A DNA stretch of 22,569 nt from a virus (lineage: Duplodnaviria; Heunggongvirae; Uroviricota; Caudoviricetes), in IMG/VR virus record IMGVR_UViG_2778261128_000006; one strand, 5' to 3'. The translations under genes and the position numbers were made by a program. Positions 8,761 through 19,949 of this stretch are shown in pieces (position 1 is the stretch's first letter; each line of letters starts with the position of its first letter). The notes below the pieces were generated by a model. The model was not told where the DNA came from. It made no database searches and was given only the letters and a program-made list of their open reading frames with translations.

Positions 8761-9684
8761 ATGAATAAAAAATTTACCGATGAGCAGCAACAACAGCTTA
8801 TAGGACATCTCACAAAGAAAGGCTTCTATCGAGGAGCTAATATTAAAATAACCATTTTTCTATGTGGTGGTGACGTTGCTAATCATCAATCTTGGCGTCA
8901 TCAATTATCACAATTTTTAGCAAAGTTCAGTGATGTTGATATATTTTATCCAGAAGATCTATTTGATGATCTTTTGGCTGGTCAAGGGCAGCATAGCCTT
9001 TTAAGTTTAGAAAATATTCTGGCTGAAGCTGTCGATGTAATAATTTTATTTCCTGAAAGTCCGGGGTCTTTCACAGAGCTTGGTGCGTTCTCTAATAATG
9101 AAAACTTAAGGAGAAAGTTGATTTGCATTCAAGATGCAAAATTTAAATCAAAACGTAGCTTTATTAACTATGGTCCTGTTCGCCTGTTGCGTAAGTTTAA
9201 TTCAAAATCTGTTTTGCGTTGTAGTTCAAATGAACTAAAAGAAATGTGTGATTCATCTATTGATGTTGCCAGAAAATTACGATTATATAAAAAATTAATG
9301 GCATCTATTAAGAAGGTTAGGAAAGAAAATAAAGTATCAAAAGATATTGGAAATATATTATACGCAGAGCGGTTTCTATTGCCTTGTATCTATTTACTGG
9401 ATAGTGTCAACTACCGCACACTGTGTGAACTAGCTTTTAAAGCGATAAAGCAAGATGATGTTTTATCTAAAATTATTGTTAGATCCGTTGTTTCTCGTCT
9501 AATAAATGAACGAAAAATACTTCAAATGACTGATGGTTATCAGGTCACTGCTTTGGGGGCTAGCTATGTTAGGAGCGTCTTTGATAGAAAGACACTTGAC
9601 CGATTGCGGCTTGAGATTATGAATTTTGAAAACCGTAGAAAATCAACATTTAACTATGATAAGATTCCGTATGCGCACCCTTAG
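8761..9684 (+). CDS. Retron effector, nucleoside 2-deoxyribosyltransferase-like (NDT) protein with C-terminal basic domain
   Basis: 307-aa AT-rich ORF directly upstream of msr-msd and RT; Rossmann-like N-terminal region (KITIFLCGG ... VIILFPESPGSFTELG); its 3' end overlaps the a1 repeat; matches the Retron-Eco1 effector as I recall it. Confidence 0.8.
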   Translation: MNKKFTDEQQQQLIGHLTKKGFYRGANIKITIFLCGGDVANHQSWRHQLSQFLAKFSDVDIFYPEDLFDDLLAGQGQHSLLSLENILAEAVDVIILFPESPGSFTELGAFSNNENLRRKLICIQDAKFKSKRSFINYGPVRLLRKFNSKSVLRCSSNELKEMCDSSIDVARKLRLYKKLMASIKKVRKENKVSKDIGNILYAERFLLPCIYLLDSVNYRTLCELAFKAIKQDDVLSKIIVRSVVSRLINERKILQMTDGYQVTALGASYVRSVFDRKTLDRLRLEIMNFENRRKSTFNYDKIPYAHP

Positions 9685-9846: not shown

Positions 9847-10809
9847 ATGAAATCCGCTGAATATTTGAACACTTTTAGATTGAGAAATCTCGGCCTACCT
9901 GTCATGAACAATTTGCATGACATGTCTAAGGCGACTCGCATATCTGTTGAAACACTTCGGTTGTTAATCTATACAGCTGATTTTCGCTATAGGATCTACA
10001 CTGTAGAAAAGAAAGGCCCAGAGAAGAGAATGAGAACCATTTACCAACCTTCTCGAGAACTTAAAGCCTTACAAGGATGGGTTCTACGTAACATTTTAGA
10101 TAAACTGTCGTCATCTCCTTTTTCTATTGGATTTGAAAAGCACCAATCTATTTTGAATAATGCTACCCCGCATATTGGGGCAAACTTTATACTGAATATT
10201 GATTTGGAGGATTTTTTCCCAAGTTTAACTGCTAACAAAGTTTTTGGAGTGTTCCATTCTCTTGGTTATAATCGACTAATATCTTCAGTTTTGACAAAAA
10301 TATGTTGTTATAAAAATCTGCTACCACAAGGTGCTCCATCATCACCTAAATTAGCTAATCTAATATGTTCTAAACTTGATTATCGTATTCAGGGTTATGC
10401 AGGTAGTCGGGGCTTGATATATACGAGATATGCCGATGATCTCACCTTATCTGCACAGTCTATGAAAAAGGTTGTTAAAGCACGTGATTTTTTATTTTCT
10501 ATAATCCCAAGTGAAGGATTGGTTATTAACTCAAAAAAAACTTGTATTAGTGGGCCTCGTAGTCAGAGGAAAGTTACAGGTTTAGTTATTTCACAAGAGA
10601 AAGTTGGGATAGGTAGAGAAAAATATAAAGAAATTAGAGCAAAGATACATCATATATTTTGCGGTAAGTCTTCTGAGATAGAACACGTTAGGGGATGGTT
10701 GTCATTTATTTTAAGTGTGGATTCAAAAAGCCATAGGAGATTAATAACTTATATTAGCAAATTAGAAAAAAAATATGGAAAGAACCCTTTAAATAAAGCG
10801 AAGACCTAA
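9847..10809 (+). CDS. ret: Retron reverse transcriptase (Ec86/Eco1-type, 320 aa)
   Basis: RT motifs including YADD (RYADDLTLS) and retron-specific VTG (RKVTGLVI); length and sequence match Ec86 RT from memory. Confidence 0.95.
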   Translation: MKSAEYLNTFRLRNLGLPVMNNLHDMSKATRISVETLRLLIYTADFRYRIYTVEKKGPEKRMRTIYQPSRELKALQGWVLRNILDKLSSSPFSIGFEKHQSILNNATPHIGANFILNIDLEDFFPSLTANKVFGVFHSLGYNRLISSVLTKICCYKNLLPQGAPSSPKLANLICSKLDYRIQGYAGSRGLIYTRYADDLTLSAQSMKKVVKARDFLFSIIPSEGLVINSKKTCISGPRSQRKVTGLVISQEKVGIGREKYKEIRAKIHHIFCGKSSEIEHVRGWLSFILSVDSKSHRRLITYISKLEKKYGKNPLNKAKT

Positions 10810-11855: not shown

Positions 11856-13618
11856 AAAATCTCCACAATATTGCTGGTATTGGCGGACTCGCCCTGCAGC
11901 GGTTCGTTAAACAGTGCGTGCATTGTTGCCCAGGCCAGATCGGCATGGCTGGCTTCTTCGCTGCGGCTGGCTTCATAGGTTGGGCGGTTGCCGCTGGCGG
12001 TGGTGGCGCGACGGATTGCCATAAATGACTGCGCTATGTCGGTGTGTCCGGCGTCAAACTCCAGACGACGGTGACTGATAATGTCGTAGGCCTTGAGTAC
12101 CAGGGCGTTTTTAACGTTGGGGTTGTAGACAAACTCCCGGACGGCTGGAAAAAACGCTTTCACGTTCTCGTAAACCCCGTGGCCGACACCTGTCGAGTCG
12201 ATGCCGATGTAGGTCACGTTGTACTGCTCGGTCAGTTTTTTGATGGCGTCAGCCTGGGCGCGGAAGTCCATCCCGCGCCACTGGTGACGCTCAAGAATGC
12301 GGAACTTACCACCCGGCACGGCTGGCGGTGCCACCACCACGCATCCGGCACTGTCGCCGTTCTGCGTACCTTTTGCCGGGTCATAACCGATCCACACTTC
12401 GCGCCAGCCAAACGGGCGCAGGGCCAGTGCATGAAAGTCGGTCCAGATTTCCCAACTGTCCACCATGCACGCTTGCAGCTCGCTGAGCGGGAACACGGAC
12501 GCGAGATCGTCCACGAACTCGCACATCAGCAGGTTCTGGTATTCGTCCGGGCTGTACTCCATGCGTAGCTGGTCGAGGTCGAACAGGTTACAGCCGCCGC
12601 GCACCGCATCTTCCACGGTGACTATCTGGCGGTATTGCCCGTCTGTGCACAGCAGGCCGGGGGCCAGATTGCTGTGGGACAGGTCGATGTCCACCTTGTC
12701 GGCTTTGTTGCGCCCACGGTTGAACAGCGCACCGGACCAGAACGGATAAGCACTGTGTGTCAGGCTGGATGGCGTGGAAAAATAGGTTTGTCGCCATTTT
12801 TTGTGAATAGCCATACCGGAAGCCACTTTGCGCAGCTCTTGGAATTTCGGTATCCAGAAATATTCATCCAGATACAGGTTGCCGTGGTAACTCTGGGCCG
12901 TGCGGGCATTGGTGCCGAGGAAGTACAGCGTGGCCCCGTTAGGAAGCACTATCGGATCGCCTTTCAGCTCCACCTCCACTTCTTTGGCGAAGTCGATGAT
13001 GTACTGCTTAAAGACGTGGGCCTGTGCCTTGCTGGCGGAAAGGAAAATCTGGTTACGCCCGGTTAGCAGGGCGTCAATCAGGGCTTCACGGGCAAAATAG
13101 AAGGTCGCGCCGATCTGGCGTGACTTCAGCAGGTTGCGGATGCGGTTGGTTTTTCCGGCTTCCCACCAGTGGCGCTGGTAGTTGAACATGGAGGAATGGA
13201 AGATTTCTTCCAGCTTCTCAATCTGTTCATCGGTGAAAACGTTCTTTTCCGGCTGACGACGCGGGCCTTTGTTGCGGTTGGCGACGTTAGGGTTTAAGTC
13301 GGCTTCGTTGCCGCCATTGTTAAACTTGCCGATCCGCGCATGGCGCTCCGACTGGCGCGCCAGCAGGTCAATCTCTTTGAAATCTTTCCCTTCTTTGTGC
13401 TCCTTCATAATGAGCTGGCAGTAGCGTGCGGCGGTGGTGAGCTGCATCTGATCCAGCGGCCCATAGTCACCCCACTTGTCGCGTTTTTTCCAGCTGTGAA
13501 CGGTTGCAACTTTCTCGCCCAGCATTTCAGCAATGCGGGCTACGCGGTATCCCTGAAAGTACAGCAGCATGGCCTGCCGACGGGGATCGAGATCTGCGGG
13601 TGTCAGTGTGGTGTTCAT
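11852..13618 (-). CDS. P: Terminase large (ATPase) subunit (P2 gpP-like)
   Basis: 588 aa, divergent from scaffold gene O; size and position match P2 gpP. Confidence 0.85.
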   Translation of the reverse strand: MNTTLTPADLDPRRQAMLLYFQGYRVARIAEMLGEKVATVHSWKKRDKWGDYGPLDQMQLTTAARYCQLIMKEHKEGKDFKEIDLLARQSERHARIGKFNNGGNEADLNPNVANRNKGPRRQPEKNVFTDEQIEKLEEIFHSSMFNYQRHWWEAGKTNRIRNLLKSRQIGATFYFAREALIDALLTGRNQIFLSASKAQAHVFKQYIIDFAKEVEVELKGDPIVLPNGATLYFLGTNARTAQSYHGNLYLDEYFWIPKFQELRKVASGMAIHKKWRQTYFSTPSSLTHSAYPFWSGALFNRGRNKADKVDIDLSHSNLAPGLLCTDGQYRQIVTVEDAVRGGCNLFDLDQLRMEYSPDEYQNLLMCEFVDDLASVFPLSELQACMVDSWEIWTDFHALALRPFGWREVWIGYDPAKGTQNGDSAGCVVVAPPAVPGGKFRILERHQWRGMDFRAQADAIKKLTEQYNVTYIGIDSTGVGHGVYENVKAFFPAVREFVYNPNVKNALVLKAYDIISHRRLEFDAGHTDIAQSFMAIRRATTASGNRPTYEASRSEEASHADLAWATMHALFNEPLQGESANTSNIVEIF

Positions 13619-13664
13619 GGCACAAACCTACAGCCTTGAATGAAGGCTTTCCCCGCCTGCGGTT

Positions 13665-13682
13665 TGTGTGGTTGTCGGTACA
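13665..13682 (+). promoter_or_regulatory. Ogr-type late-promoter activator site (TGT-N12-ACA dyad) upstream of gene O
   Basis: TGT at 13665-13667, 12-nt spacer, ACA at 13680-13682, roughly 55 nt upstream of the expected O transcript start; P2 late promoters carry this dyad. Confidence 0.5.
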
Positions 13683-13760: not shown

Positions 13761-14513
13761 ATGACAGTGAAAGCAAAGCGTTTTCGCATCGGGGTGGAAG
13801 GTGCCACCACCGACGGACGCGAAATCCAGCGTGAATGGCTGGAACAGATGGCAGCCAGCTACAACCCGGCGGTGTATACCGCGCTGATTAACCTTGAGCA
13901 CATCAAGTCTTATCTGCCGGACAGCACCTTTAACCGCTACGGCAAGGTGACGGCGCTGTTTGCTGAGGAAATCACGGAAGGTCCGCTGGCAGGCAAGATG
14001 GCGCTGTATGCCGACGTTGAGCCAACGGAGTCCCTGGTGGAACTGGTGAAAAAAGGCCAGAAATTATTCACCTCTATGGAAGTCAGCCCGAAGTTCGCTG
14101 ATACGGGCAAAGCCTACCTGGTCGGCCTGGCTGCCACTGATGACCCTGCCAGTCTGGGCACTGAAATGCTGACATTCAGCGCCAGTGCAGCCCATAACCC
14201 GCTGGCAAACCGCAAGCAGAATCCTGCCAATCTCTTTACCGCTGCAGAGGAAACGGTGATCGAACTGGAGGAAGTCCAGGACGACAAACCGTCCCTGTTT
14301 TCCCGCGTCACGGCGCTGTTCACCAAAAAAGAGCAGTCCGATGACGCCCGGTTCTCTGATGTGCATAAGGCCGTGGAGCTGGTCGCCACTGAGCAGCAAA
14401 ACCTGAGCGCGCGAACCGAAAAATCTCTGTCTGAGCAGGAAGAACGCCTGTCTGAACTGGAGTCTGCTCTGCAGAAGCAGCAACGGGCAATGCCTGTAGT
14501 TCCACACTGGTGA
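13761..14513 (+). CDS. O: Capsid scaffold protein (P2 gpO-like), C-terminally truncated by deletion
   Basis: N-terminal 220 aa resemble P2 gpO (FRIGVEG...INLEH...YLVGLAATDDPASLGTE); ORF ends abruptly and is followed in another frame by an endolysin C-terminus. Confidence 0.75.
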   Translation: MTVKAKRFRIGVEGATTDGREIQREWLEQMAASYNPAVYTALINLEHIKSYLPDSTFNRYGKVTALFAEEITEGPLAGKMALYADVEPTESLVELVKKGQKLFTSMEVSPKFADTGKAYLVGLAATDDPASLGTEMLTFSASAAHNPLANRKQNPANLFTAAEETVIELEEVQDDKPSLFSRVTALFTKKEQSDDARFSDVHKAVELVATEQQNLSARTEKSLSEQEERLSELESALQKQQRAMPVVPHW

Positions 14514-14653
14514 AATTGCTCAATCAGCGGCGCTGGGCAGATGCGTGCCGACAGTTGCCGCGCTGGGTTTATGTAAAAGGTGTGTTTAATCAGGGGCTGG
14601 ATAACCGCCGTGCGCGGGAGATGGCCTGGTGCCTTAAAGGAGCTGGACTATGA
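14510..14653 (+). pseudogene. Remnant C-terminus of phage endolysin (P2 gpK / lambda R-like lysozyme), no start codon
   Basis: Frame translation ...KLLNQRRWADACRQLPRWVYVKGVFNQGLDNRRAREMAWCLKGAGL-stop, overlapping lysB start in ATGA; genes N, M, L, X, Y and most of K absent. Confidence 0.6.
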
Positions 14654-15211: not shown

Positions 15212-15605
15212 AGCGGTGCCTTATGTCCGCAATAACCCGGACAAACTGCATCTGTTTGTGGATAACGGTTCGCTGGTTGCCACGGGGGCCAGCTCCATGT
15301 CGTGGGAGTACCGTTACACCCTGAACGCGGTGATTGAGGATTTCAGCGGCGACCAGAATCTGCTGATGGCCCCGGTTTTGCTGTGGCTGCGGGATAACCA
15401 GCCCGATGCCATCAATAACCCGGCGTTACGGGAAAAACTATTTACCTTTGAGGTGGATATTCTGCGCAACGATGTCTGTGATATCAGCCTTAACCTGCAT
15501 CTGACGGAACGTGTGCTGGTCAGCACTGACGGCAGTGTGTCGAGCGTTGAAGCTGTAGCAGAACCCGATGAACCTGAAGAAATGTGGACGGTGAAACGTG
15601 GCTGA
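15174..15605 (+). CDS. R: Tail completion protein (P2 gpR-like)
   Basis: GTG start at 15174 after AGGAGC RBS; about 143 aa; resembles P2 R (…FVDNGS…RYTLN…DF.GD…L…PVL.WLR.NQPD). Confidence 0.75.
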   Translation: MNKPQSLRHALNKAVPYVRNNPDKLHLFVDNGSLVATGASSMSWEYRYTLNAVIEDFSGDQNLLMAPVLLWLRDNQPDAINNPALREKLFTFEVDILRNDVCDISLNLHLTERVLVSTDGSVSSVEAVAEPDEPEEMWTVKRG

Positions 15606-16044
15606 ACTGCAGAAGGTGGACGACTGGCTTAGTGCCTTACTGGCGAATCTGGAACCAGTCGCAAGAAGCCGCATGATGCGCCAGCTGGCGCAGGAACTGC
15701 GCCGGACACAGCAGCAGAATATCAGGATGCAGCGCAATCCAGATGGCAGCAGTTATGAACCGCGCAAGGTCACGGCGCGCAGTAAAAAAGGCCGCATCAA
15801 ACGTCAGATGTTTGCAAAGCTGCGCACCACCAAATACCTGAAAACCGCCGCCAGCGCCGACTCTGCCAGCGTACAGTTTGAAAGTAAGGTGCAGCGCATT
15901 GCCCGCGTTCACCATTATGGCCTGCGCGATCGCGTCAGCCGCAAAGGACCGGAAGTGCGTTACGCAGAGCGTCGTTTGTTGGGTCTTAATGGTGAGTCTT
16001 ACGTTCTAACTCGTGATATATTGAATAGATTCCTTCTGTCTTGA
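15598..16044 (+). CDS. S: Tail completion / virion morphogenesis protein (P2 gpS-like), C-terminal end runs into AT-rich foreign DNA
   Basis: GTG start overlapping R stop; sequence composition changes near 15990, so last about 18 codons are probably not native. Confidence 0.65.
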   Translation: MAELQKVDDWLSALLANLEPVARSRMMRQLAQELRRTQQQNIRMQRNPDGSSYEPRKVTARSKKGRIKRQMFAKLRTTKYLKTAASADSASVQFESKVQRIARVHHYGLRDRVSRKGPEVRYAERRLLGLNGESYVLTRDILNRFLLS

Positions 16045-16792
16045 ATTCACCATATGCCCAATGAATTGCATTTTTTTGTTCAGTCAGAATATATTTCCTA
16101 ACTTTTTTAGAATAGTGAATGGTCAGTATAAAACCCAAAGAAATCCATAATAGAATAAATATGGTTGTTGGGGCAAAGGAATAGATAAAGAATTTGTCTT
16201 TAACGAAATTCTTGACTTCTTCATCAATGTAAGTATTCCCTTCATCAGTGGTTAGTAGTTTACAAAGAATTTCTTTATGTTCGATAGTTAATGATTTGTA
16301 CTTCTCTGTACTGGCAGAGGATGACTCTTCGCAATCATCTTTTGATATTTCCCAATCAGGAGTGGTTAATATTGTAGCTGCAGTCGCCAGTTTTTTTGAC
16401 ATATAAAATGATTCACCGGACTTTATCCAATAAAGCAATGTGCTATTTGGTGGGGTTCTAATGGCTTGGATGAAAACTGGACCAAAAATATAAATTGCAC
16501 ACAAAAAAAGAAGTGAAAAGAGAACCGTGATTGATTTTTCAGCCCATGTGATAGTAGGCAGCCTTTTTAATGATATTCGTATAAGAAAAAAATTTAATAT
16601 AAACGCAGGTATTCCTGATTTTTTCAAAATTACATCATGAGATTTTCTATATTTGAATAGTGCTCTTATAACTATCGTCACCAAAGTTATAACAGCTCCA
16701 ATAATGGAAATCCATGCGGCAAGTGCCGCTGCCGGGGTGTTTAAAAATTCAGCATTAAATATATTAGAACTTATTGGATTCATAACACTCAT
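15986..16792 (-). CDS. Multi-pass membrane protein, hypothetical (AT-rich insertion)
   Basis: 268-aa ORF in a very AT-rich block; at least 4 hydrophobic helices (e.g. AALAAWISIIGAVITLVTIVI, ITVLFSLLFLCAIYIFGPVFI, TTIFILLWISLGFILTI); no recognisable enzymatic motif. Confidence 0.6.
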   Translation of the reverse strand: MSVMNPISSNIFNAEFLNTPAAALAAWISIIGAVITLVTIVIRALFKYRKSHDVILKKSGIPAFILNFFLIRISLKRLPTITWAEKSITVLFSLLFLCAIYIFGPVFIQAIRTPPNSTLLYWIKSGESFYMSKKLATAATILTTPDWEISKDDCEESSSASTEKYKSLTIEHKEILCKLLTTDEGNTYIDEEVKNFVKDKFFIYSFAPTTIFILLWISLGFILTIHYSKKVRKYILTEQKNAIHWAYGEFKTEGIYSIYHELERKTHH

Positions 16793-16895
16793 TTATCCAC
16801 CTATTGGTTGTTTTTTATCCTTTTATCAATTTGTACCATCGATACCACAATTTGCAAGAAGTTATAAACAAGTTTTCAGCTGTCATCATATATCT

Positions 16896-17621
16896 ATGAA
16901 CGCACAACTAACCGAAATCATGCGCCTTATCACCAATCTGATCCGCATAGGTGTAGTCACCGAAGTGGACCGGGAAAACTGGCTTTGTCGGGTGAAAACG
17001 GGCGACCTTGAAACCAACTGGATCAGCTGGCTGACGCTGCGCGCGGGTAATGCCCGCACATGGTGGCGACCATCGGAAGGTGAGCAGGTGGTGCTGCTGA
17101 GTCTGGGCGGCAATCTGGAGACTGCCTTTGCGCTGCCCGCTGTCTATTCGAATCAGTTCGCACCACCGTCGACGTCGGCGGACGCCTGCGTGACAGAACA
17201 TCCTGACGGTGGCTGGTTTGAATACGAACCCGCCACCGGGCGCTGGTATGTCAGGGGCATCAAATCAATGGTCATTGAGGCCGCTGATAACATCACCATG
17301 AAAACCAGTGAGTTTGTACTGGAGGCTGACCGCACGCGCATTAACAGCGAAGTGGTGATCAATGGTGGCGTTATTCCTTCACCCACGCATGAAGAACTTA
17401 TTGAAATTTCTGAGTCAAAAAGACAGCTATTAATTAATCAGGCCAACGAATACATGAACAGTAAACAATGGCCCGGTAAAGCCGCTATTGGTCGTCTGAA
17501 AGGCGAGGAACTGGCGCAATATAATTCGTGGCTGGATTATCTGGACGCACTGGAGCTGGTTGATACCTCCAGTGTGCCAGATATTGAATGGCCTACGCCT
17601 CCGGCAGTTCAGGCCAGATGA
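16896..17621 (+). pseudogene. Chimeric ORF: N-terminus of baseplate spike gpV fused to C-terminus of a tail fibre assembly protein (deletion junction)
   Basis: Starts MNAQLTEIMRLITNLIRIGVV...RTWW.PS.GEQV like P2 gpV; ends ...WLDYLDALELVDTSSVPDIEWPTPP like Tfa C-termini (compare the convergent Tfa at 17593-18195). Confidence 0.65.
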
Positions 17622-18195
17622 CATCCGGCGCGGTGCTGGTATCTGTTGCCGTCACCGCGTCAATGTAATCCAGCACAATGTTAAGTCGGGTGGTTTCTGC
17701 CTGCATCAGCTTCCGCCCGGCCTGCAATTTCAGCTGAATCAGACTAATGGAAGCCATTGCTGCATCAATCAGTGACTGGCGTTGTGCTTCTGCCACTTCT
17801 ACTGCGGCACCGTGTTGTGCCTCAGTATCTGTCACCCATTTCTCACCATCCCATTTATCGTATGGCGTTAACGGTGCGATAGTGGTTGTATTTTCAGGGT
17901 AATCACCCGGAGCTGTGATTTCTTTGGCATCTCCCGTTTCGGTGTTATAGACGATTTCACCGCGATGATCTGGCACATATTCCCATGAGTTAAAATCTGT
18001 AGAACGGCAGATTGCATAATCAGCCTTATGTGTGCCAGGGGCATCTAAACAGGAACATGCCGGAATGCCGACACCAACGGAAAGATATTCATTTGAAGTG
18101 GAAATATATTCCCGTGTTTCACCATCATAGTTATAGACAGGAATATTTCCCGCCTTCGTGGCAATAAGCTCGCTATTTAATACAGCGTTATCCAT
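17593..18195 (-). CDS. tfa: Tail fibre assembly protein (Tfa / gpG / U-prime type)
   Basis: 200 aa; C-terminus LDYIDAVTATDTSTAPDVIWPELP typical of Tfa chaperones; convergent and overlapping with the other Tfa C-terminus as in invertible G/C/P segments. Confidence 0.75.
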   Translation of the reverse strand: MDNAVLNSELIATKAGNIPVYNYDGETREYISTSNEYLSVGVGIPACSCLDAPGTHKADYAICRSTDFNSWEYVPDHRGEIVYNTETGDAKEITAPGDYPENTTTIAPLTPYDKWDGEKWVTDTEAQHGAAVEVAEAQRQSLIDAAMASISLIQLKLQAGRKLMQAETTRLNIVLDYIDAVTATDTSTAPDVIWPELPEA

Positions 18196-18737
18196 TATGC
18201 AGCCCTCACGATATAGTTAAATGCAATATTCCGTGGGCGGGTTTCATTTACCCCATATGCTGTTGTTCTCTGATTCCCGACAAAATATCCATTTGGATTA
18301 GAGGATACAGAATAATCATCAAAATCAAGTGGGCTATCAGCACCCGGCGTCAGGCTTGCAATATATCCTCTTCCCATAACTTCTGATGCTGGTATTTCTT
18401 TTGTACGATAATCACTGACTCTGAAGAGCTGTCCCTGGTGGGTGTGTGATTCCACTCCTCCATTCTGAAGACTTAGCAAGGCACGTCCAGCATCAATACC
18501 ACGCCCATCATCCCAGCCACGAATAAACTCACCACGTAAATCAGGCAATTTATTTGTCGGATAAGCCTTTGCCAGTTCCGGGTATTCTTCAGCAGAAAAA
18601 GCTGCACCATTGCATTTCAGCCAGCCTGTAGGCGGAGTGGCTGAAGGCCACGGAACAGGCACCCCAACAGGTAATGCAGAGTCTTCTCCCAAACCAACGT
18701 TTAAGAAAATGCAGCGATTACGACTAACTGGCATCAT
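18195..18737 (-). CDS. Tail fibre variable C-terminal segment (Sv-prime-like) of an invertible tail-fibre cassette; lacks constant N-terminal part
   Basis: 180 aa; begins inside a Din-type crossover site; resembles variable tail-fibre tips of Mu / P1 / e14 type cassettes. Confidence 0.65.
   Translation of the reverse strand: MMPVSRNRCIFLNVGLGEDSALPVGVPVPWPSATPPTGWLKCNGAAFSAEEYPELAKAYPTNKLPDLRGEFIRGWDDGRGIDAGRALLSLQNGGVESHTHQGQLFRVSDYRTKEIPASEVMGRGYIASLTPGADSPLDFDDYSVSSNPNGYFVGNQRTTAYGVNETRPRNIAFNYIVRAA
18684..18707. other. Din-family invertase crossover site (gix/hix/pix-like), orphan copy
   Basis: TTCTCCCAAACC AA CGTTTAAGAA: two imperfect 11-bp inverted half-sites around a central AA, matching the TTATC-AAACC-WW-GGTTT-GATAA pattern; located at the 5' end of the Sv-prime ORF, adjacent to the invertase gene. 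Confidence 0.55.
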
Positions 18738-18758
18738 CCCCGATTTTTATTCAAGGAG

Positions 18759-19040
18759 ATGATCATGCTTATTGGCTATGTACGCGTGTCAACAAATGAC
18801 CAGAACACCGATTTGCAACGTAGTGCGCTGAACTGCGCGGGATGTGAGCGGATTTTTGAGGATAAAATCAGCGGCACTAAGTCCGACAGACCGGGGCTGA
18901 AAAAACTGCTCAGGACACTATCGGCAGGAGACACGCTGGTTGTCTGGAAGCTGGACAGGTTGGGGCGCAGTATGCGGCATCTTGTTACGCTGATAGAAGA
19001 GTTACCCGCGAACCTGCGAAGAAAGAAAGCACCACGGTGA
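18759..19040 (+). pseudogene. Serine DNA invertase (Hin/Gin/Pin/Cin family), truncated after about 80 aa
   Basis: N-terminus MLIGYVRVSTNDQNTDLQR...LVVWKLDRLGRSMRHLV is the resolvase catalytic domain with Ser in VRVST; ORF ends prematurely and runs into a gpD fragment. Confidence 0.8.
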
Positions 19041-19405
19041 AGCGTAAGCGCAGAACTAAGAAGCAGAAGAAAGAGCCGGAAGCGAAGCAGGGCGATTACC
19101 TGGTGGGTACGGATGAAAACGTGCTGGTACTTAATCGCACTTATGCCAACCGGAGCAACGCCGAACGAGCGGCGAAAATGCAGTGGGAACGCCTGCAACG
19201 CGGCGTTGCGTCATTCTCGCTACAACTGGCGGAAGGGCGGGCAGATCTCTACACGGAAATGCCAGTGAAAGTCAGTGGCTTTAAACAGCCGATAGATGAT
19301 GCGGAATGGACTATTACCACCCTGACGCATACTGTCAGCCCGGATAACGGTTTTACGACCAGTCTGGAGCTTGAAGTGAAGATTGATGATTTCGAAATGG
19401 AATGA
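19037..19405 (+). pseudogene. C-terminal fragment of P2 gpD-like tail protein (late control gene D)
   Basis: No ATG (track start is GTG); C-terminal sequence ...LELEVKIDDFEME typical of gpD end; located immediately before ogr as in P2. Confidence 0.65.
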
Positions 19406-19714: not shown

Positions 19715-19792
19715 CGCTGCCGCCATTTTGTCGCCATCGTTAAAAAACAGTGCTTCTAACATCATGATTTTAAAGAGCATAAATTTCAGGCA

Positions 19793-19837
19793 ACAAAAAA
19801 CCCATCAACCTTGAACCGAAATGGCGGGGTTGATGGG
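19793..19837 (-). terminator. Rho-independent terminator (minus strand), probably host ybjL terminator near the prophage right boundary
   Basis: CCCATCAACC ... GGTTGATGGG 10-bp stem, followed on the minus strand by TTTTTTGTTG. Confidence 0.45.
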
Positions 19838-19949
19838 CTCCACAAAATGGGGACATCAAAGAAAAGCAGTGGCACTAATTAAGACTGATGCCCTGCGGAA
19901 AAGTTCTGCGGTTGTGCAAAAAAATTTCATTTTCAGGGCAACTTCAGTT

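What the first reader, a model, noticed from the sequence alone, without database searches (positions are those of the whole stretch)
15986..16895. AT-rich insertion encoding a 268-aa multi-pass membrane protein between tail genes S and V
Base composition drops sharply near 15990 and recovers near 16895. The insert carries one minus-strand gene with at least four transmembrane helices and a hydrophilic central segment, overlapping the 3' end of S. No P2 gene maps here, so it looks like horizontally acquired cargo. Single membrane proteins carried by prophages often act in superinfection exclusion or abortive infection.
Basis: partly seen in the sequence, partly recalled or inferred. Interest (0 to 1): 0.6.

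Follow-up and report, generated by a model that had tools for sequence, protein, structure and literature searches.

The report
P2 orf30-site membrane protein cargo gene
The AT-rich stretch is a real, mobile one-gene cassette at a known variable site of P2-like phages; it encodes a three-pass inner-membrane protein of unknown function (DUF6216, a likely distant relative of P2 Orf30) that bacteria keep intact after the rest of the prophage has decayed.

Summary
Positions 15986-16895 have 32.6% GC against about 56% in the flanks. They carry one intact minus-strand gene (15986-16792, 268 aa) whose 3' end overlaps S by 59 bp.

P2 does have a gene at this site: the nonessential Orf30, on the same strand, AT-rich and of similar size. 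The literature already lists orf30 as one of three horizontally exchanged P2 loci. Formal analysis gives three transmembrane helices, not four or more.

The window is the defective P2-like prophage of E. coli B (BL21/REL606). RefSeq already annotates the protein as a "DUF6216 family protein".

New points from this work:
- The cassette has moved as a unit between diverged phage backbones.
- Orf30 is probably a remote DUF6216 relative (hhalign 78%; same order of secondary-structure elements; same invariant cysteine pair).
- The periplasmic domain is hypervariable.
- A conserved promoter-like element overlaps the Ogr box of the V promoter.
- The gene survives intact in heavily decayed prophage remnants in several genera.

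Function is untested. My best guess is an envelope-level protective protein expressed in the lysogen, of the superinfection-exclusion type. No known defence or exclusion family matches it. Interest is moderate.

The parts
15980..16895 (.). AT-rich exchangeable cassette: S 3' end, the DUF6216 gene, and the divergent promoter region up to the V start codon
   Evidence: GC 0.326 against about 0.56 in the flanks. Identity to E. coli locus L004 is 95-100% across 15980-16939 but 73-90% in the flanks. No bracketing direct or inverted repeats.
15986..16792 (-). CDS of the 268-aa DUF6216-family inner-membrane protein (WP_000115390.1 in BL21(DE3); one NCBI record names a close (same 90% cluster) variant ybl42)
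   Evidence: ORF. Pfam PF19723 E=1.5e-11. RefSeq annotation. Cluster names. dN/dS 0.15-0.34.
16655..16729 (-). TM1 (residues about 22-46), preceded by a short uncharged N-terminal tail predicted to be periplasmic
   Evidence: Hydropathy peak 2.58. AF2 helix 20-47. The following loop 44-60 has 5 K/R, consistent with a cytoplasmic location.
16463..16537 (-). TM2 (residues about 86-110)
   Evidence: Hydropathy peak 2.55. AF2 helix 83-112.
16187..16462 (-). Predicted periplasmic domain (residues about 111-202): four beta-strands and two helices. It holds the only residues invariant across the wider family, Cys154 (16331-16333) and Cys177 (16262-16264). This is the hypervariable part.
   Evidence: AF2 secondary structure. 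C154 and C177 are the only invariant columns in 43 diverse members. DNA identity to L019 falls to 37-58% here while the flanks stay at 80-90%.
16112..16186 (-). TM3 (residues about 203-227), continuing as a long helix into the conserved basic cytoplasmic tail (228-268)
   Evidence: Hydropathy peak 2.07. AF2 helix 183-246. The tail has 8 K/R. Conserved RKYILTEQK...GEFK.EGIY motif.
15986..16044 (.). 59-bp convergent overlap: the last 19 codons of the DUF6216 gene lie antisense to the last codons of S. The cassette supplies its own variant of the S C-terminus.
   Evidence: ORF coordinates. The S C-terminus diverges from the empty-site relative from about 15975. The same overlap is present in L004, L005 and L042.
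15598..16044 (+). Tail completion / virion morphogenesis gene S (left anchor)
   Evidence: Pfam Phage_tail_S in syntenic loci. RefSeq annotation.
16796..16802 (-). Shine-Dalgarno-like AGGTGGA, 3 nt upstream of the DUF6216 ATG (4th base downstream)
   Evidence: Sequence. The GG core is conserved in all 11 upstream regions aligned.
16830..16857 (-). Predicted sigma-70 promoter of the DUF6216 gene: -35 TTGCAA (16852-16857), 16-nt spacer, extended -10 TGgTACAAA (16830-16838)
   Evidence: Phylogenetic footprint: TCTTG.AA...TGGTACAA.TT is invariant in 11 loci, including remnants that have lost V (L016, L017). It was not picked up by the simple consensus scan, so it remains a prediction.
16832..16849 (+). 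Ogr/Delta-type activator box TGT-N12-ACA of the late promoter P_V, centred 55 nt upstream of the V ATG. It overlaps the spacer and extended -10 element of the predicted DUF6216 promoter.
   Evidence: Pattern match. Same geometry as the annotated P2 activator site. TTGT-N12-ACA is conserved in four of the six other S-V variants aligned (empty site, Cartapus, UC4316, IAL7254); P2 and DG341 did not align to it. In the decayed remnants L016-L018 the half-site is mutated TGT to TAT while the -35 and -10 elements persist.
16896..17372 (+). 5' part of baseplate gene V (right anchor). In this window it is truncated and fused to a tail-fibre-assembly C-terminus.
   Evidence: Alignment to 500465-1 V. 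The chimeric ORF ends at 17621. Junction at 17372/17373 relative to BL21.

Best explanation
The stretch is the 'orf30-locus' cargo cassette of a P2/186-like prophage, here the defective prophage between rcdA and ybjL of E. coli B.

Shown:
- It carries one gene for a 268-aa DUF6216 protein.
- The cassette moves between diverged P2-like backbones by recombination within S and at the V start.
- The gene is under purifying selection.
- The gene outlives the prophage in several genera.

Predicted (not measured):
- The protein is an inner-membrane protein with an N-out, three-TM topology.
- It has a cytoplasmic loop, a roughly 90-residue periplasmic beta/alpha domain held by a conserved cysteine pair, and a conserved basic cytoplasmic tail.

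Inferred:
- It is a distant homologue of P2 Orf30.
- It is transcribed in the lysogen from its own sigma-70 promoter. Ogr would occlude that promoter when it activates the divergent V promoter late in lytic growth.
- It benefits the host at the envelope. The most likely mechanism is superinfection exclusion: the variable periplasmic domain engages the DNA-delivery apparatus of an incoming phage, or masks the inner-membrane component that apparatus needs, so that genome entry fails. P22 SieA and HK97 gp15 work this way.

My confidence is about 0.9 for the identity, mobility and cargo status, and about 0.35 for the exclusion mechanism.
For: Identity and position:
- Pfam DUF6216 hit above cut-off; RefSeq name.
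- P2 Orf30 is at the same site and strand and is annotated nonessential.
- The literature lists orf30 as a locus where non-P2 genes are commonly found, predicted to be horizontally acquired, and R18C carries a different ORF there.

Mobility:
- Cassette identity is 95-100% against 73-90% in the flanks when compared with L004.
- dS is 0.044 for the gene, against 0.90 (S), 0.61 (V) and 0.54 (W).
- Some 109 of 5426 complete E. coli genomes carry it. Most of the other sampled matches have the 1191-bp empty S-V arrangement.

Synteny: members down to 18-20% identity still lie between or next to S and V.

Orf30 homology:
- hhalign gives 77.6% probability, E=1.9e-5, over 144 colinear columns.
- DUF6216 is the commonest sub-threshold Pfam hit among Orf30 relatives (5 of 24).
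- Both AF2 models have the same order of elements: TM1, cytoplasmic helices, TM2, four beta-strands, a short helix with 'DC', a helix with the second Cys, and a long TM3 helix.
- The cysteine pair is invariant in both families.

Host benefit:
- In C. sedlakii the intact gene is the only prophage DNA left between ybjL and rcdA.
- C. youngae, Scandinavium and an Enterobacteriaceae MAG keep it among fragments of V, S, R, ogr and CI.
- Serratia and K. aerogenes remnants also keep it.
- dN/dS is 0.15-0.34.
- The promoter footprint persists where V is gone.

Envelope-level specificity: the variable centre corresponds to the periplasmic domain with TM2 and TM3, while both termini are conserved.

Cargo habit:
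- A 33%-identical member sits in the Q-to-holin moron slot of a lambdoid prophage.
- Another sits next to an OLD-like AAA_21+DUF4435 gene.
- A retron occupies the other hotspot of this same prophage.

Functional analogue: P22 SieA is a 3-TM inner-membrane protein, sufficient on its own, with sequence types less than 30% identical to each other.
Against: - There are no functional data.
- There is no match in PADLOC and no PHROG superinfection-exclusion family.
- The Orf30 link is below the usual 90-95% hhalign standard, and TM composition inflates such scores.
- Foldseek of the model against BFVD did not list P2 Orf30 among the 50 hits shown.
- The promoter is only a footprint, and it overlaps the Ogr box, which could explain part of its conservation. 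The simple promoter scan missed it.
- Remnant loci were found by searching for intact homologues, so 'last gene standing' carries ascertainment bias.
- The C-terminal and N-terminal conservation may be partly imposed by the overlapping S codons and the V promoter.
- A hypervariable periplasmic domain would also fit non-phage partners.
Confidence: 0.5

Rival explanations
1. Abortive-infection or toxic membrane effector. The protein stays inert in the inner membrane until a phage cue makes it depolarise or permeabilise the membrane, killing the infected cell (RexB-like or SLATT-like logic).
For: It is a single multi-pass membrane protein carried as AT-rich prophage cargo. UniRef labels one Orf30-like relative as a 'SMODS and SLOG-associating 2TM effector' protein. 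One distant member lies beside an OLD-like ATPase/DUF4435 gene and another mobile-element gene set. AT-rich cargo of this kind is a typical H-NS target according to a 2026 preprint abstract.
Against: No SLATT Pfam or NCBIfam model hits any of 67 family members scanned. There is no partner sensor gene in the cassette. The variable part is periplasmic rather than cytoplasmic, where most Abi triggers are sensed. There is no PADLOC hit. Long-term retention in chromosomes without an antitoxin-like neighbour argues against strong toxicity.
Confidence: 0.15
2. A lysogenic-conversion factor unrelated to phages. In this reading it is an envelope protein that helps the host against other stresses, such as bacteriocins, contact-dependent or T6SS toxins, host factors or envelope stress, or one that alters a host membrane process.
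For: The gene is kept intact in several genera after prophage decay. It has a disulfide-type periplasmic domain with high variability. No anti-phage family matches. One distant member is a stand-alone chromosomal gene between tynA and feaB homologues.
Against: Nearly every sampled member is tied to phage genomes, at recognised moron slots. There is no similarity to known immunity or virulence families in Pfam or NCBIfam.
Confidence: 0.2
3. A phage-serving accessory function in the lytic cycle, for example lysis timing (holin/antiholin-like), or protection of progeny from adsorbing to lysed cells, rather than a lysogen-expressed function.
For: TM1 gives a weak hit to the HP1-family holin model (E=0.037) and to a PHROG holin (E=0.26). 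The gene sits next to a late promoter whose palindromic Ogr box could in principle work in both directions.
Against: The holin hits are far below cut-off and cover a single TM helix. The gene lies outside the lysis cassette. It is absent from closely related deposited phage genomes, and Orf30 is annotated nonessential. Intact retention in remnants that cannot make phage, and loss of the Ogr half-site there while the -35 and -10 elements persist, argue for expression independent of the lytic programme.
Confidence: 0.1
4. Selectively neutral hitch-hiker. In this reading the ORF persists only because it is wedged between, and overlaps, elements that are themselves constrained (the S 3' end and the V promoter).
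For: The 59-bp overlap with S and the shared promoter region. dN/dS of 0.69 in the closest pair (L004) suggests weak recent constraint.
Against: dN/dS is 0.15-0.34 at larger divergence. Full-length ORFs remain where S and V are destroyed or gone (L015-L018). An invariant cysteine pair and conserved motifs hold across 43 members at 15-93% identity.
Confidence: 0.05

Closest known systems
Bacteriophage P2 Orf30 (NP_046770.1), the nonessential ORF between S and V
   Same: Same slot, same strand (divergent from V, convergent with S), same AT-richness (34% against 33% GC) and similar length (261 against 268 aa). Both have three hydropathy peaks in matching order, the same order of predicted secondary-structure elements, and an invariant 'DC ... 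C' pair before TM3. Function is unknown in both.
   Different: Pairwise identity is only 23% (E=0.043). P2 Orf30 itself is not hit by Pfam DUF6216. Its cytoplasmic loop is longer and more charged. P2 has a predicted terminator between S and orf30 rather than a gene overlap. Homology is probable (hhalign 78%) but not proven.
Pfam PF19723 (DUF6216), an uncharacterised proteobacterial membrane-protein family
   Same: The window protein scores above the gathering threshold. Of 43 collected relatives, 41 match at E<=1, best 1e-80. RefSeq already uses this name.
   Different: The Pfam entry says nothing about function, phage association or topology. The S/V synteny, the cysteine pair and the Orf30 link are additions from this analysis.
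P22 SieA (superinfection exclusion; PMC10883804)
   Same: Both are prophage-borne single genes. [quoted passage not shown] SieA alone blocks DNA injection. This is the working model proposed here.
   Different: There is no detectable sequence similarity (no PHROG or Pfam link). SieA is about 100 residues shorter (162-164 aa). The phage family and genome position differ, and no exclusion phenotype is known for DUF6216.
P2 cargo hotspots: the TO region (tin/old; Rousset et al. 2022, PMC9122126) and the Z/fun region
   Same: All are small AT-rich loci between conserved anchor genes with high turnover of unrelated genes. The S/V site shows at least six unrelated single-gene alleles plus an empty state in this analysis, a different ORF reported in phage R18C, and a HigB-like toxin/HTH pair in one locus.
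   Different: Rousset et al. analysed the cos-adjacent hotspot only. A term search of their main text found no mention of baseplate, gpV or gpS, and orf30 does not occur in it. None of the S/V alleles tested matches a PADLOC model. Cargo here is a single gene, always on the strand opposite to S and V in the loci examined here.

Membership tests
Pfam DUF6216 (PF19723) | Whole-protein score at or above the curated gathering threshold (27.3 bits) | tested here: met
   44.5 bits, E=1.5e-11, residues 72-237 against profile positions 114-265 of 270.
Pfam DUF6216 (PF19723) | Family-wide architecture: about 230-300 aa, three hydrophobic spans, and a central domain with two invariant cysteines | tested here: met
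   Hydropathy and AF2 model. C154 and C177 are the only invariant columns in 43 members.
P2 Orf30 family / orf30 locus | Located between tail gene S and baseplate gene V, on the opposite strand, AT-rich, dispensable | tested here: met
   Absent from close relatives.
P2 Orf30 family / orf30 locus | Significant sequence homology to P2 Orf30 | tested here: inconclusive
   BLASTP 23% identity, E=0.043. hhalign rose from 0.3% to 34.5% to 77.6% probability as the profiles deepened, reaching E=1.9e-5 over 144 columns. Five of 24 Orf30 relatives give sub-threshold DUF6216 hits. P2 Orf30 itself has no Pfam hit.
P2 Orf30 family / orf30 locus | Same predicted fold topology | tested here: met
   The two AF2 models (pLDDT 75 and 72) have the same order of elements, with the cysteines in equivalent elements. 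No direct superposition could be run.
Superinfection-exclusion inner-membrane proteins (P22 SieA, HK97 gp15, T4 Imm type) | Sequence or profile similarity to a known Sie family | tested here: not met
   PHROGs gave no hit better than E=0.15 and none to a Sie family. BFVD Foldseek found nothing at E<=0.001.
Superinfection-exclusion inner-membrane proteins (P22 SieA, HK97 gp15, T4 Imm type) | Inner-membrane location | tested here: inconclusive
   Prediction only: three TM helices, positive-inside distribution, no signal peptide.
Superinfection-exclusion inner-membrane proteins (P22 SieA, HK97 gp15, T4 Imm type) | Expressed from the prophage, and necessary and sufficient to block genome entry of a superinfecting phage | not testable with these tools
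   Only a conserved promoter-like footprint is available. Plaque and DNA-entry assays are needed.
Known anti-phage defence systems (PADLOC-DB v2) | Match to any defence-protein model | tested here: not met
   No families at E<=1 for the window protein. None at E<=0.1 for five other S/V-site alleles, including P2 Orf30.
SLATT (SMODS and SLOG-associating 2TM effector) domain | Match to a SLATT Pfam or NCBIfam model | tested here: not met
   No SLATT family among the hits for 43 DUF6216 members or 24 Orf30-family members, or for P0091, the protein that UniRef so names.
Phage holins (HP1 family, PF16080) | Score above cut-off and location in the lysis cassette | tested here: not met
   14.5 bits against a cut-off of 28.8, covering one TM helix only. 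The true holin of this phage type lies upstream of the lysozyme gene.
Transposon, IS or integron-type insertion | Terminal inverted repeats, target-site duplication or a recombinase | tested here: not met
   No bracketing repeats. The boundaries fall inside S and at the V start, consistent with homologous exchange.

The most novel reading that the evidence does not exclude
The S/V (orf30) slot is a third, overlooked single-gene immunity hotspot of P2-like phages. In this reading the DUF6216/Orf30 superfamily is a new family of envelope-level anti-phage proteins. Its disulfide-bonded, hypervariable periplasmic domain would set which incoming phages are blocked. The gene would be switched off by Ogr during the phage's own late development, and Enterobacteriaceae have repeatedly domesticated it at the ybjL-rcdA locus, including in BL21 and REL606.
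Probability: 0.3. Interest if true: 0.65.

Novelty: new member of a known kind. Interest (0 to 1): 0.42.

Why it matters
P2 Orf30 has been listed as 'unknown, nonessential' in every source I could open. This gene is probably its distant relative, and it sits in BL21(DE3) and REL606, two of the most widely used E. coli strains, so deletion and expression tests are easy.

If the protein blocks phage entry, three things follow. It would add a new family of single-gene exclusion proteins. It would establish the S/V slot as a mineable hotspot anchored by two highly conserved genes. It would also explain why this gene is the piece of the prophage that chromosomes keep.

If it has no phage phenotype, the retention pattern still points to an unknown envelope function worth finding.

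As it stands the finding is an already annotated DUF gene at an already recognised variable locus, so the surprise is moderate.

Tried and rejected
- PADLOC, PHROGs and NCBIfam scans of the protein and of five other S/V-site alleles gave nothing informative.
- A PDB sequence search with the family profile gave no hit.
- tblastn of the protein against 50,697 deposited phage genomes found no match. The family is seen in prophages and IMG/VR contigs rather than in deposited phage records.
- The SLATT lead from a UniRef name is not supported by any model.
- The holin idea was rejected: the hit is sub-threshold, covers one helix, and the gene is in the wrong location.
- The transposon or insertion idea was rejected: there are no flanking repeats.
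- The simple promoter/terminator scan found no site upstream of the gene and no terminator between S and the gene. The promoter proposal rests on the phylogenetic footprint only.
The narrower A2 was used instead.
- The bioRxiv preprint 10.64898/2026.09.05.749240 mentions 'DUF6216 gene' once and BL21 29 times. It could not be opened under any identifier, and phrase probing did not recover the context.
- The first hhalign runs with shallow profiles were negative (0.3%) or weak (34.5%). Only the deepened Orf30 profile reached 78%.
Full report
**1. The observation**

Sliding-window composition shows GC falling from about 0.56 to 0.30-0.35 between roughly 15990 and 16900 and then recovering. Measured exactly, 15986-16895 is 32.6% GC, against 56.7% and 55.6% in the flanks. 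It is the lowest-GC 910-bp stretch in the window.

The ORF list gives a single long ORF there: 15986-16792, minus strand, 268 aa, ATG start. It overlaps the S gene (15598-16044) by 59 nt. V begins at 16896.

Kyte-Doolittle analysis gives three strong hydrophobic spans (about 22-46, 86-110 and 203-227). The shorter hydrophobic patch at 61-75 does not reach threshold. An AlphaFold2 model built on 21 homologues (mean pLDDT 75) has three long helices at those positions. Between TM2 and TM3 it has a small domain of four beta-strands and two helices. 'At least four' TM helices is therefore an overcount.

The distribution of charges fits an N-out, C-in topology with a periplasmic central domain. The N-tail has no K/R. 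The loop after TM1 has five K/R. The central domain is acidic. The C-tail has eight K/R.

**2. Where the window comes from**

The region is 100% identical to E. coli B-lineage genomes, including BL21(DE3), REL606, C41/C43 and an isolate labelled 'strain C'. The gene is already annotated there as 'DUF6216 family protein', WP_000115390.1, locus ECD_RS04470 in BL21(DE3). One NCBI record calls a close variant in the same 90%-identity cluster ybl42.

The element is a defective P2/186-like prophage between rcdA and ybjL. It retains integrase, CI, CII, replication gene A, a retron in the A/Q hotspot, Q, P, O, lysB/C, R, S, the DUF6216 gene, tail genes and ogr. It has lost the capsid and most lysis genes.

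**3. 'No P2 gene maps here' is wrong**

The P2 reference genome has Orf30 (NP_046770.1, 261 aa, annotated 'nonessential') on the minus strand between S and V. The activator site of the V promoter lies just upstream of it. It is 34% GC against 55-60% in the flanks, and it also has three hydrophobic spans in the same order.

PMC3091744 states that the TO region, the Z region and orf30 are the three P2 loci where genes not found in P2 commonly occur in other P2-like phages, and that they are predicted to be horizontally acquired. PMC6823313 describes a different ORF at this site in phage R18C.

**4. The site is polymorphic**

Besides the empty state (a 68-bp spacer in phage 500465-1 and many Klebsiella and E. 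coli phages), I found these single-gene alleles:
- P2 Orf30;
- the DUF6216 gene;
- a 176-aa soluble protein in phage Cartapus;
- genes of 219 aa (two TM), 288 aa and 384 aa in three E. coli genomes.

All are on the minus strand and about 33% GC. None matches PADLOC. In one distant P2-like prophage the slot holds a HigB-like toxin plus an HTH protein, and the DUF6216 gene lies between W and J instead.

Every variant I could align keeps a TGT-N12-ACA Ogr-type box at a fixed distance from the V start. In the window this box is at 16832-16849, centred 55 nt upstream of the V ATG, which matches the P2 geometry.

**5. The cassette moves as a unit**

Compared with the E. coli prophage L004, DNA identity is 95-100% across 15980-16939 but only 73-90% in R, S and V. 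Synonymous divergence is 0.044 in the cargo gene, against 0.90 in S, 0.61 in V and 0.54 in W. A nearly identical cassette therefore sits in two well-diverged phage backbones.

The left breakpoint lies inside S, so the cassette brings its own version of the last roughly 20 S codons. The right breakpoint is at the V start. No direct or inverted repeats flank it. This is allelic replacement by recombination in the conserved anchors, not insertion by a mobile-element mechanism.

About 109 of 5426 complete E. coli genomes carry this cassette.

**6. The protein family**

An exhaustive profile search of 1.84 billion cluster representatives found only 50 relatives. Of 43 aligned, 41 match Pfam DUF6216 at E<=1. 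In that alignment (15-93% identity to the query) the only invariant residues are Cys154 and Cys177. Phe129 and Trp147 are nearly invariant. All four lie in the predicted periplasmic domain, which suggests a disulfide-stabilised fold.

Among the closer 268-aa subfamily, the N-terminal 20 residues, the loop after TM1 and the C-terminal tail (RKYILTEQK..AIH...GEFK.EGIY.IY.EL) are highly conserved. The stretch containing TM2, the periplasmic domain and TM3 is much more variable. Against L019 the flanking phage genes are 80-90% identical while the centre of the gene falls to 37-58%.

**7. Synteny over deep divergence**

In 30 further loci holding the 268-aa subfamily, the gene almost always lies between S (convergent and overlapping) and V (divergent).

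Members with only 18-20% identity still lie between S and V, or beside S, in P2-like prophages (P0065 and P0073). Other members occupy different positions. One sits in the moron slot between the Q antiterminator and the holin of a lambdoid prophage. One lies next to an OLD-like AAA_21+DUF4435 gene with a resolvase and RadC. One is a stand-alone chromosomal gene.

**8. Relation to P2 Orf30**

Pairwise BLASTP is marginal (23% identity over 172 residues, E=0.043). Profile-profile comparison improved steadily as the profiles were deepened:
- 0.3% probability with shallow alignments;
- 34.5% with the broad DUF6216 alignment;
- 77.6% (E=1.9e-5, 144 colinear columns covering TM2, the periplasmic domain, both cysteines, TM3 and the tail) after the Orf30 family was expanded to 24 sequences.

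DUF6216 is the most frequent sub-threshold Pfam hit among Orf30 relatives (5 of 24, best E=0.003).

An AF2 model of an Orf30 relative (pLDDT 72) has the same element order as the DUF6216 model: TM1, cytoplasmic helices, TM2, four beta-strands, a short helix carrying the invariant 'DC', a helix carrying the second invariant Cys, and one long helix forming TM3 and the tail.

Taken together with the identical position and strand, I judge homology probable (about 0.8) but not proven.

**9. Selection and retention**

dN/dS for the gene is 0.15-0.34 at moderate to high divergence. This is purifying selection, though looser than for S, V and W (0.05-0.24). In the very close L004 pair it is 0.69, based on few changes.

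Four of the five species-representative genomes that hold a homologue have it in a decayed remnant at the same ybjL-rcdA locus as the window:
- In Citrobacter sedlakii the intact gene is the only recognisable prophage DNA left between ybjL and rcdA.
- In C. youngae it lies among fragments of V, S and R.
- In Scandinavium it lies among fragments of V, CI, CII and int.
- In an Enterobacteriaceae MAG it lies next to ogr.

Serratia and Klebsiella aerogenes keep it in remnants at another site. The window's own prophage is also defective.

There is a caveat. These loci were found by searching for the gene, so disrupted copies would have been missed.

**10. Expression signals**

Eleven upstream regions were aligned, and they share an invariant TCTTG.AA...TGGTACAA.TT. 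This reads as a -35 TTGCAA (16852-16857), a 16-nt spacer and an extended -10 TGgTACAAA (16830-16838) on the minus strand. A GG-rich Shine-Dalgarno sequence follows, ending 3 nt before the ATG.

The element overlaps the Ogr box of the V promoter. In the three most decayed remnants the Ogr half-site has changed from TGT to TAT while the -35 and -10 hexamers persist. This suggests that the hexamers are maintained for the cargo gene itself.

I infer, without measurement, constitutive or H-NS-modulated transcription in the lysogen, and occlusion by Ogr late in lytic growth. The generic promoter scan did not find this element, and no terminator was found.

**11. What it does**

No database gives a function:
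- Pfam says DUF.
- PHROGs, PADLOC and NCBIfam are negative.
- A UniRef 'SLATT' label on one Orf30-like protein is not reproduced by any model.

The anatomy and evolution point to a lysogen-expressed inner-membrane protein acting at the envelope for the host's benefit. The relevant features are:
- a single self-contained gene;
- phage moron slots;
- AT-rich DNA;
- its own promoter;
- a variable periplasmic domain on a conserved membrane and cytoplasmic scaffold;
- retention after prophage death.

The best-documented proteins with that profile are superinfection-exclusion proteins. One example is P22 SieA, which has three predicted TM segments, sits in the inner membrane, is sufficient alone, blocks DNA injection, and has sequence types less than 30% identical. 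I therefore commit to an entry-block mechanism as most likely (about 0.35). The alternatives are a non-phage envelope fitness role (0.2), an abortive-infection membrane effector (0.15), a lytic-cycle accessory role (0.1) and a neutral passenger (0.05).

**12. Novelty and verdict**

The gene, its family name and the variability of the orf30 locus are already on record, so this is not a new kind of feature.

I could not find the following described in the papers I was able to open:
- the probable Orf30-DUF6216 relationship;
- the cassette-exchange evidence;
- the invariant cysteine pair with a hypervariable periplasmic domain;
- the promoter overlap with the Ogr box;
- the 'last gene standing' pattern.

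A September 2026 preprint on H-NS silencing of immunity loci mentions 'DUF6216 gene' once and BL21 29 times. I could not open it, and it must be checked first. I score interest at 0.42: an ordinary class of feature, but a tractable unknown in a workhorse strain.

Noticed in passing
window 16896-17621 (junction at 17372/17373): V is truncated after about 159 codons and fused in frame to the C-terminal part of a tail-fibre-assembly (G-like) gene. Relative to BL21(DE3) and REL606 the window lacks 3760 bp (V 3' end, W, J, I, H, G 5' end). No complete E. coli genome in the collection spans this junction.
   Followed up: partly
window 8761-9684 and 9922-10809: A retron (St85-family effector protein plus reverse transcriptase, as annotated in the identical RefSeq record) occupies the A/Q ('TO') hotspot of the same prophage. 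The prophage therefore carries cargo at two of the three classical P2 variable loci.
   Followed up: partly
window 13761-14653: The capsid scaffold gene O runs directly into a C-terminal fragment of the lysozyme gene. The major capsid, small terminase, head completion, tail X and holin genes are deleted, so the prophage cannot form particles.
   Followed up: partly
window 19792-19870 (-): [quoted passage not shown] It may mark the attachment site used by this phage lineage.
   Followed up: no
window 13607-13624 and 13665-13682: Two further TGT-N12-ACA Ogr-type boxes lie in the divergent P/O intergenic region, as expected for the P2 late promoters. The total count of this pattern in the window is not above chance; only the positions are meaningful.
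   Followed up: partly
window 17593-19405: An inverted tail-fibre module (tail-fibre assembly gene 17593-18195 and tail-fibre C-terminus 18195-18737, both minus strand) is followed by a truncated recombinase and a D (VgrG-like) fragment. These are remains of an invertible host-range segment.
   Followed up: no
L046 5001-7613: In a distant P2-like prophage the S/V slot holds a HigB-like toxin and an HTH protein, while the DUF6216 homologue (22% identity) lies between W and J. The family is therefore not strictly bound to one slot, and the S/V slot can also carry toxin-antitoxin cargo.
   Followed up: no
L017 5438-6978 (Citrobacter sedlakii), also L015, L016, L018: At the ybjL-rcdA locus of other genera, the DUF6216 gene is the only intact survivor of a P2-like prophage. 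In C. sedlakii nothing else of the phage is recognisable.
   Followed up: yes
P0091 (Enterobacter Orf30-like protein): UniRef names it 'SMODS and SLOG-associating 2TM effector domain-containing protein'. No SLATT Pfam or NCBIfam model hits it or any relative in my scans, so the label looks unsupported, though it is a lead for an abortive-infection reading.
   Followed up: yes
bioRxiv 10.64898/2026.09.05.749240: The preprint 'H-NS silences antiviral immunity through 3D chromatin compaction' contains 'DUF6216 gene' once, 'BL21' 29 times and 'P2-like' 4 times. It could not be opened, and it may already report on this locus.
   Followed up: partly
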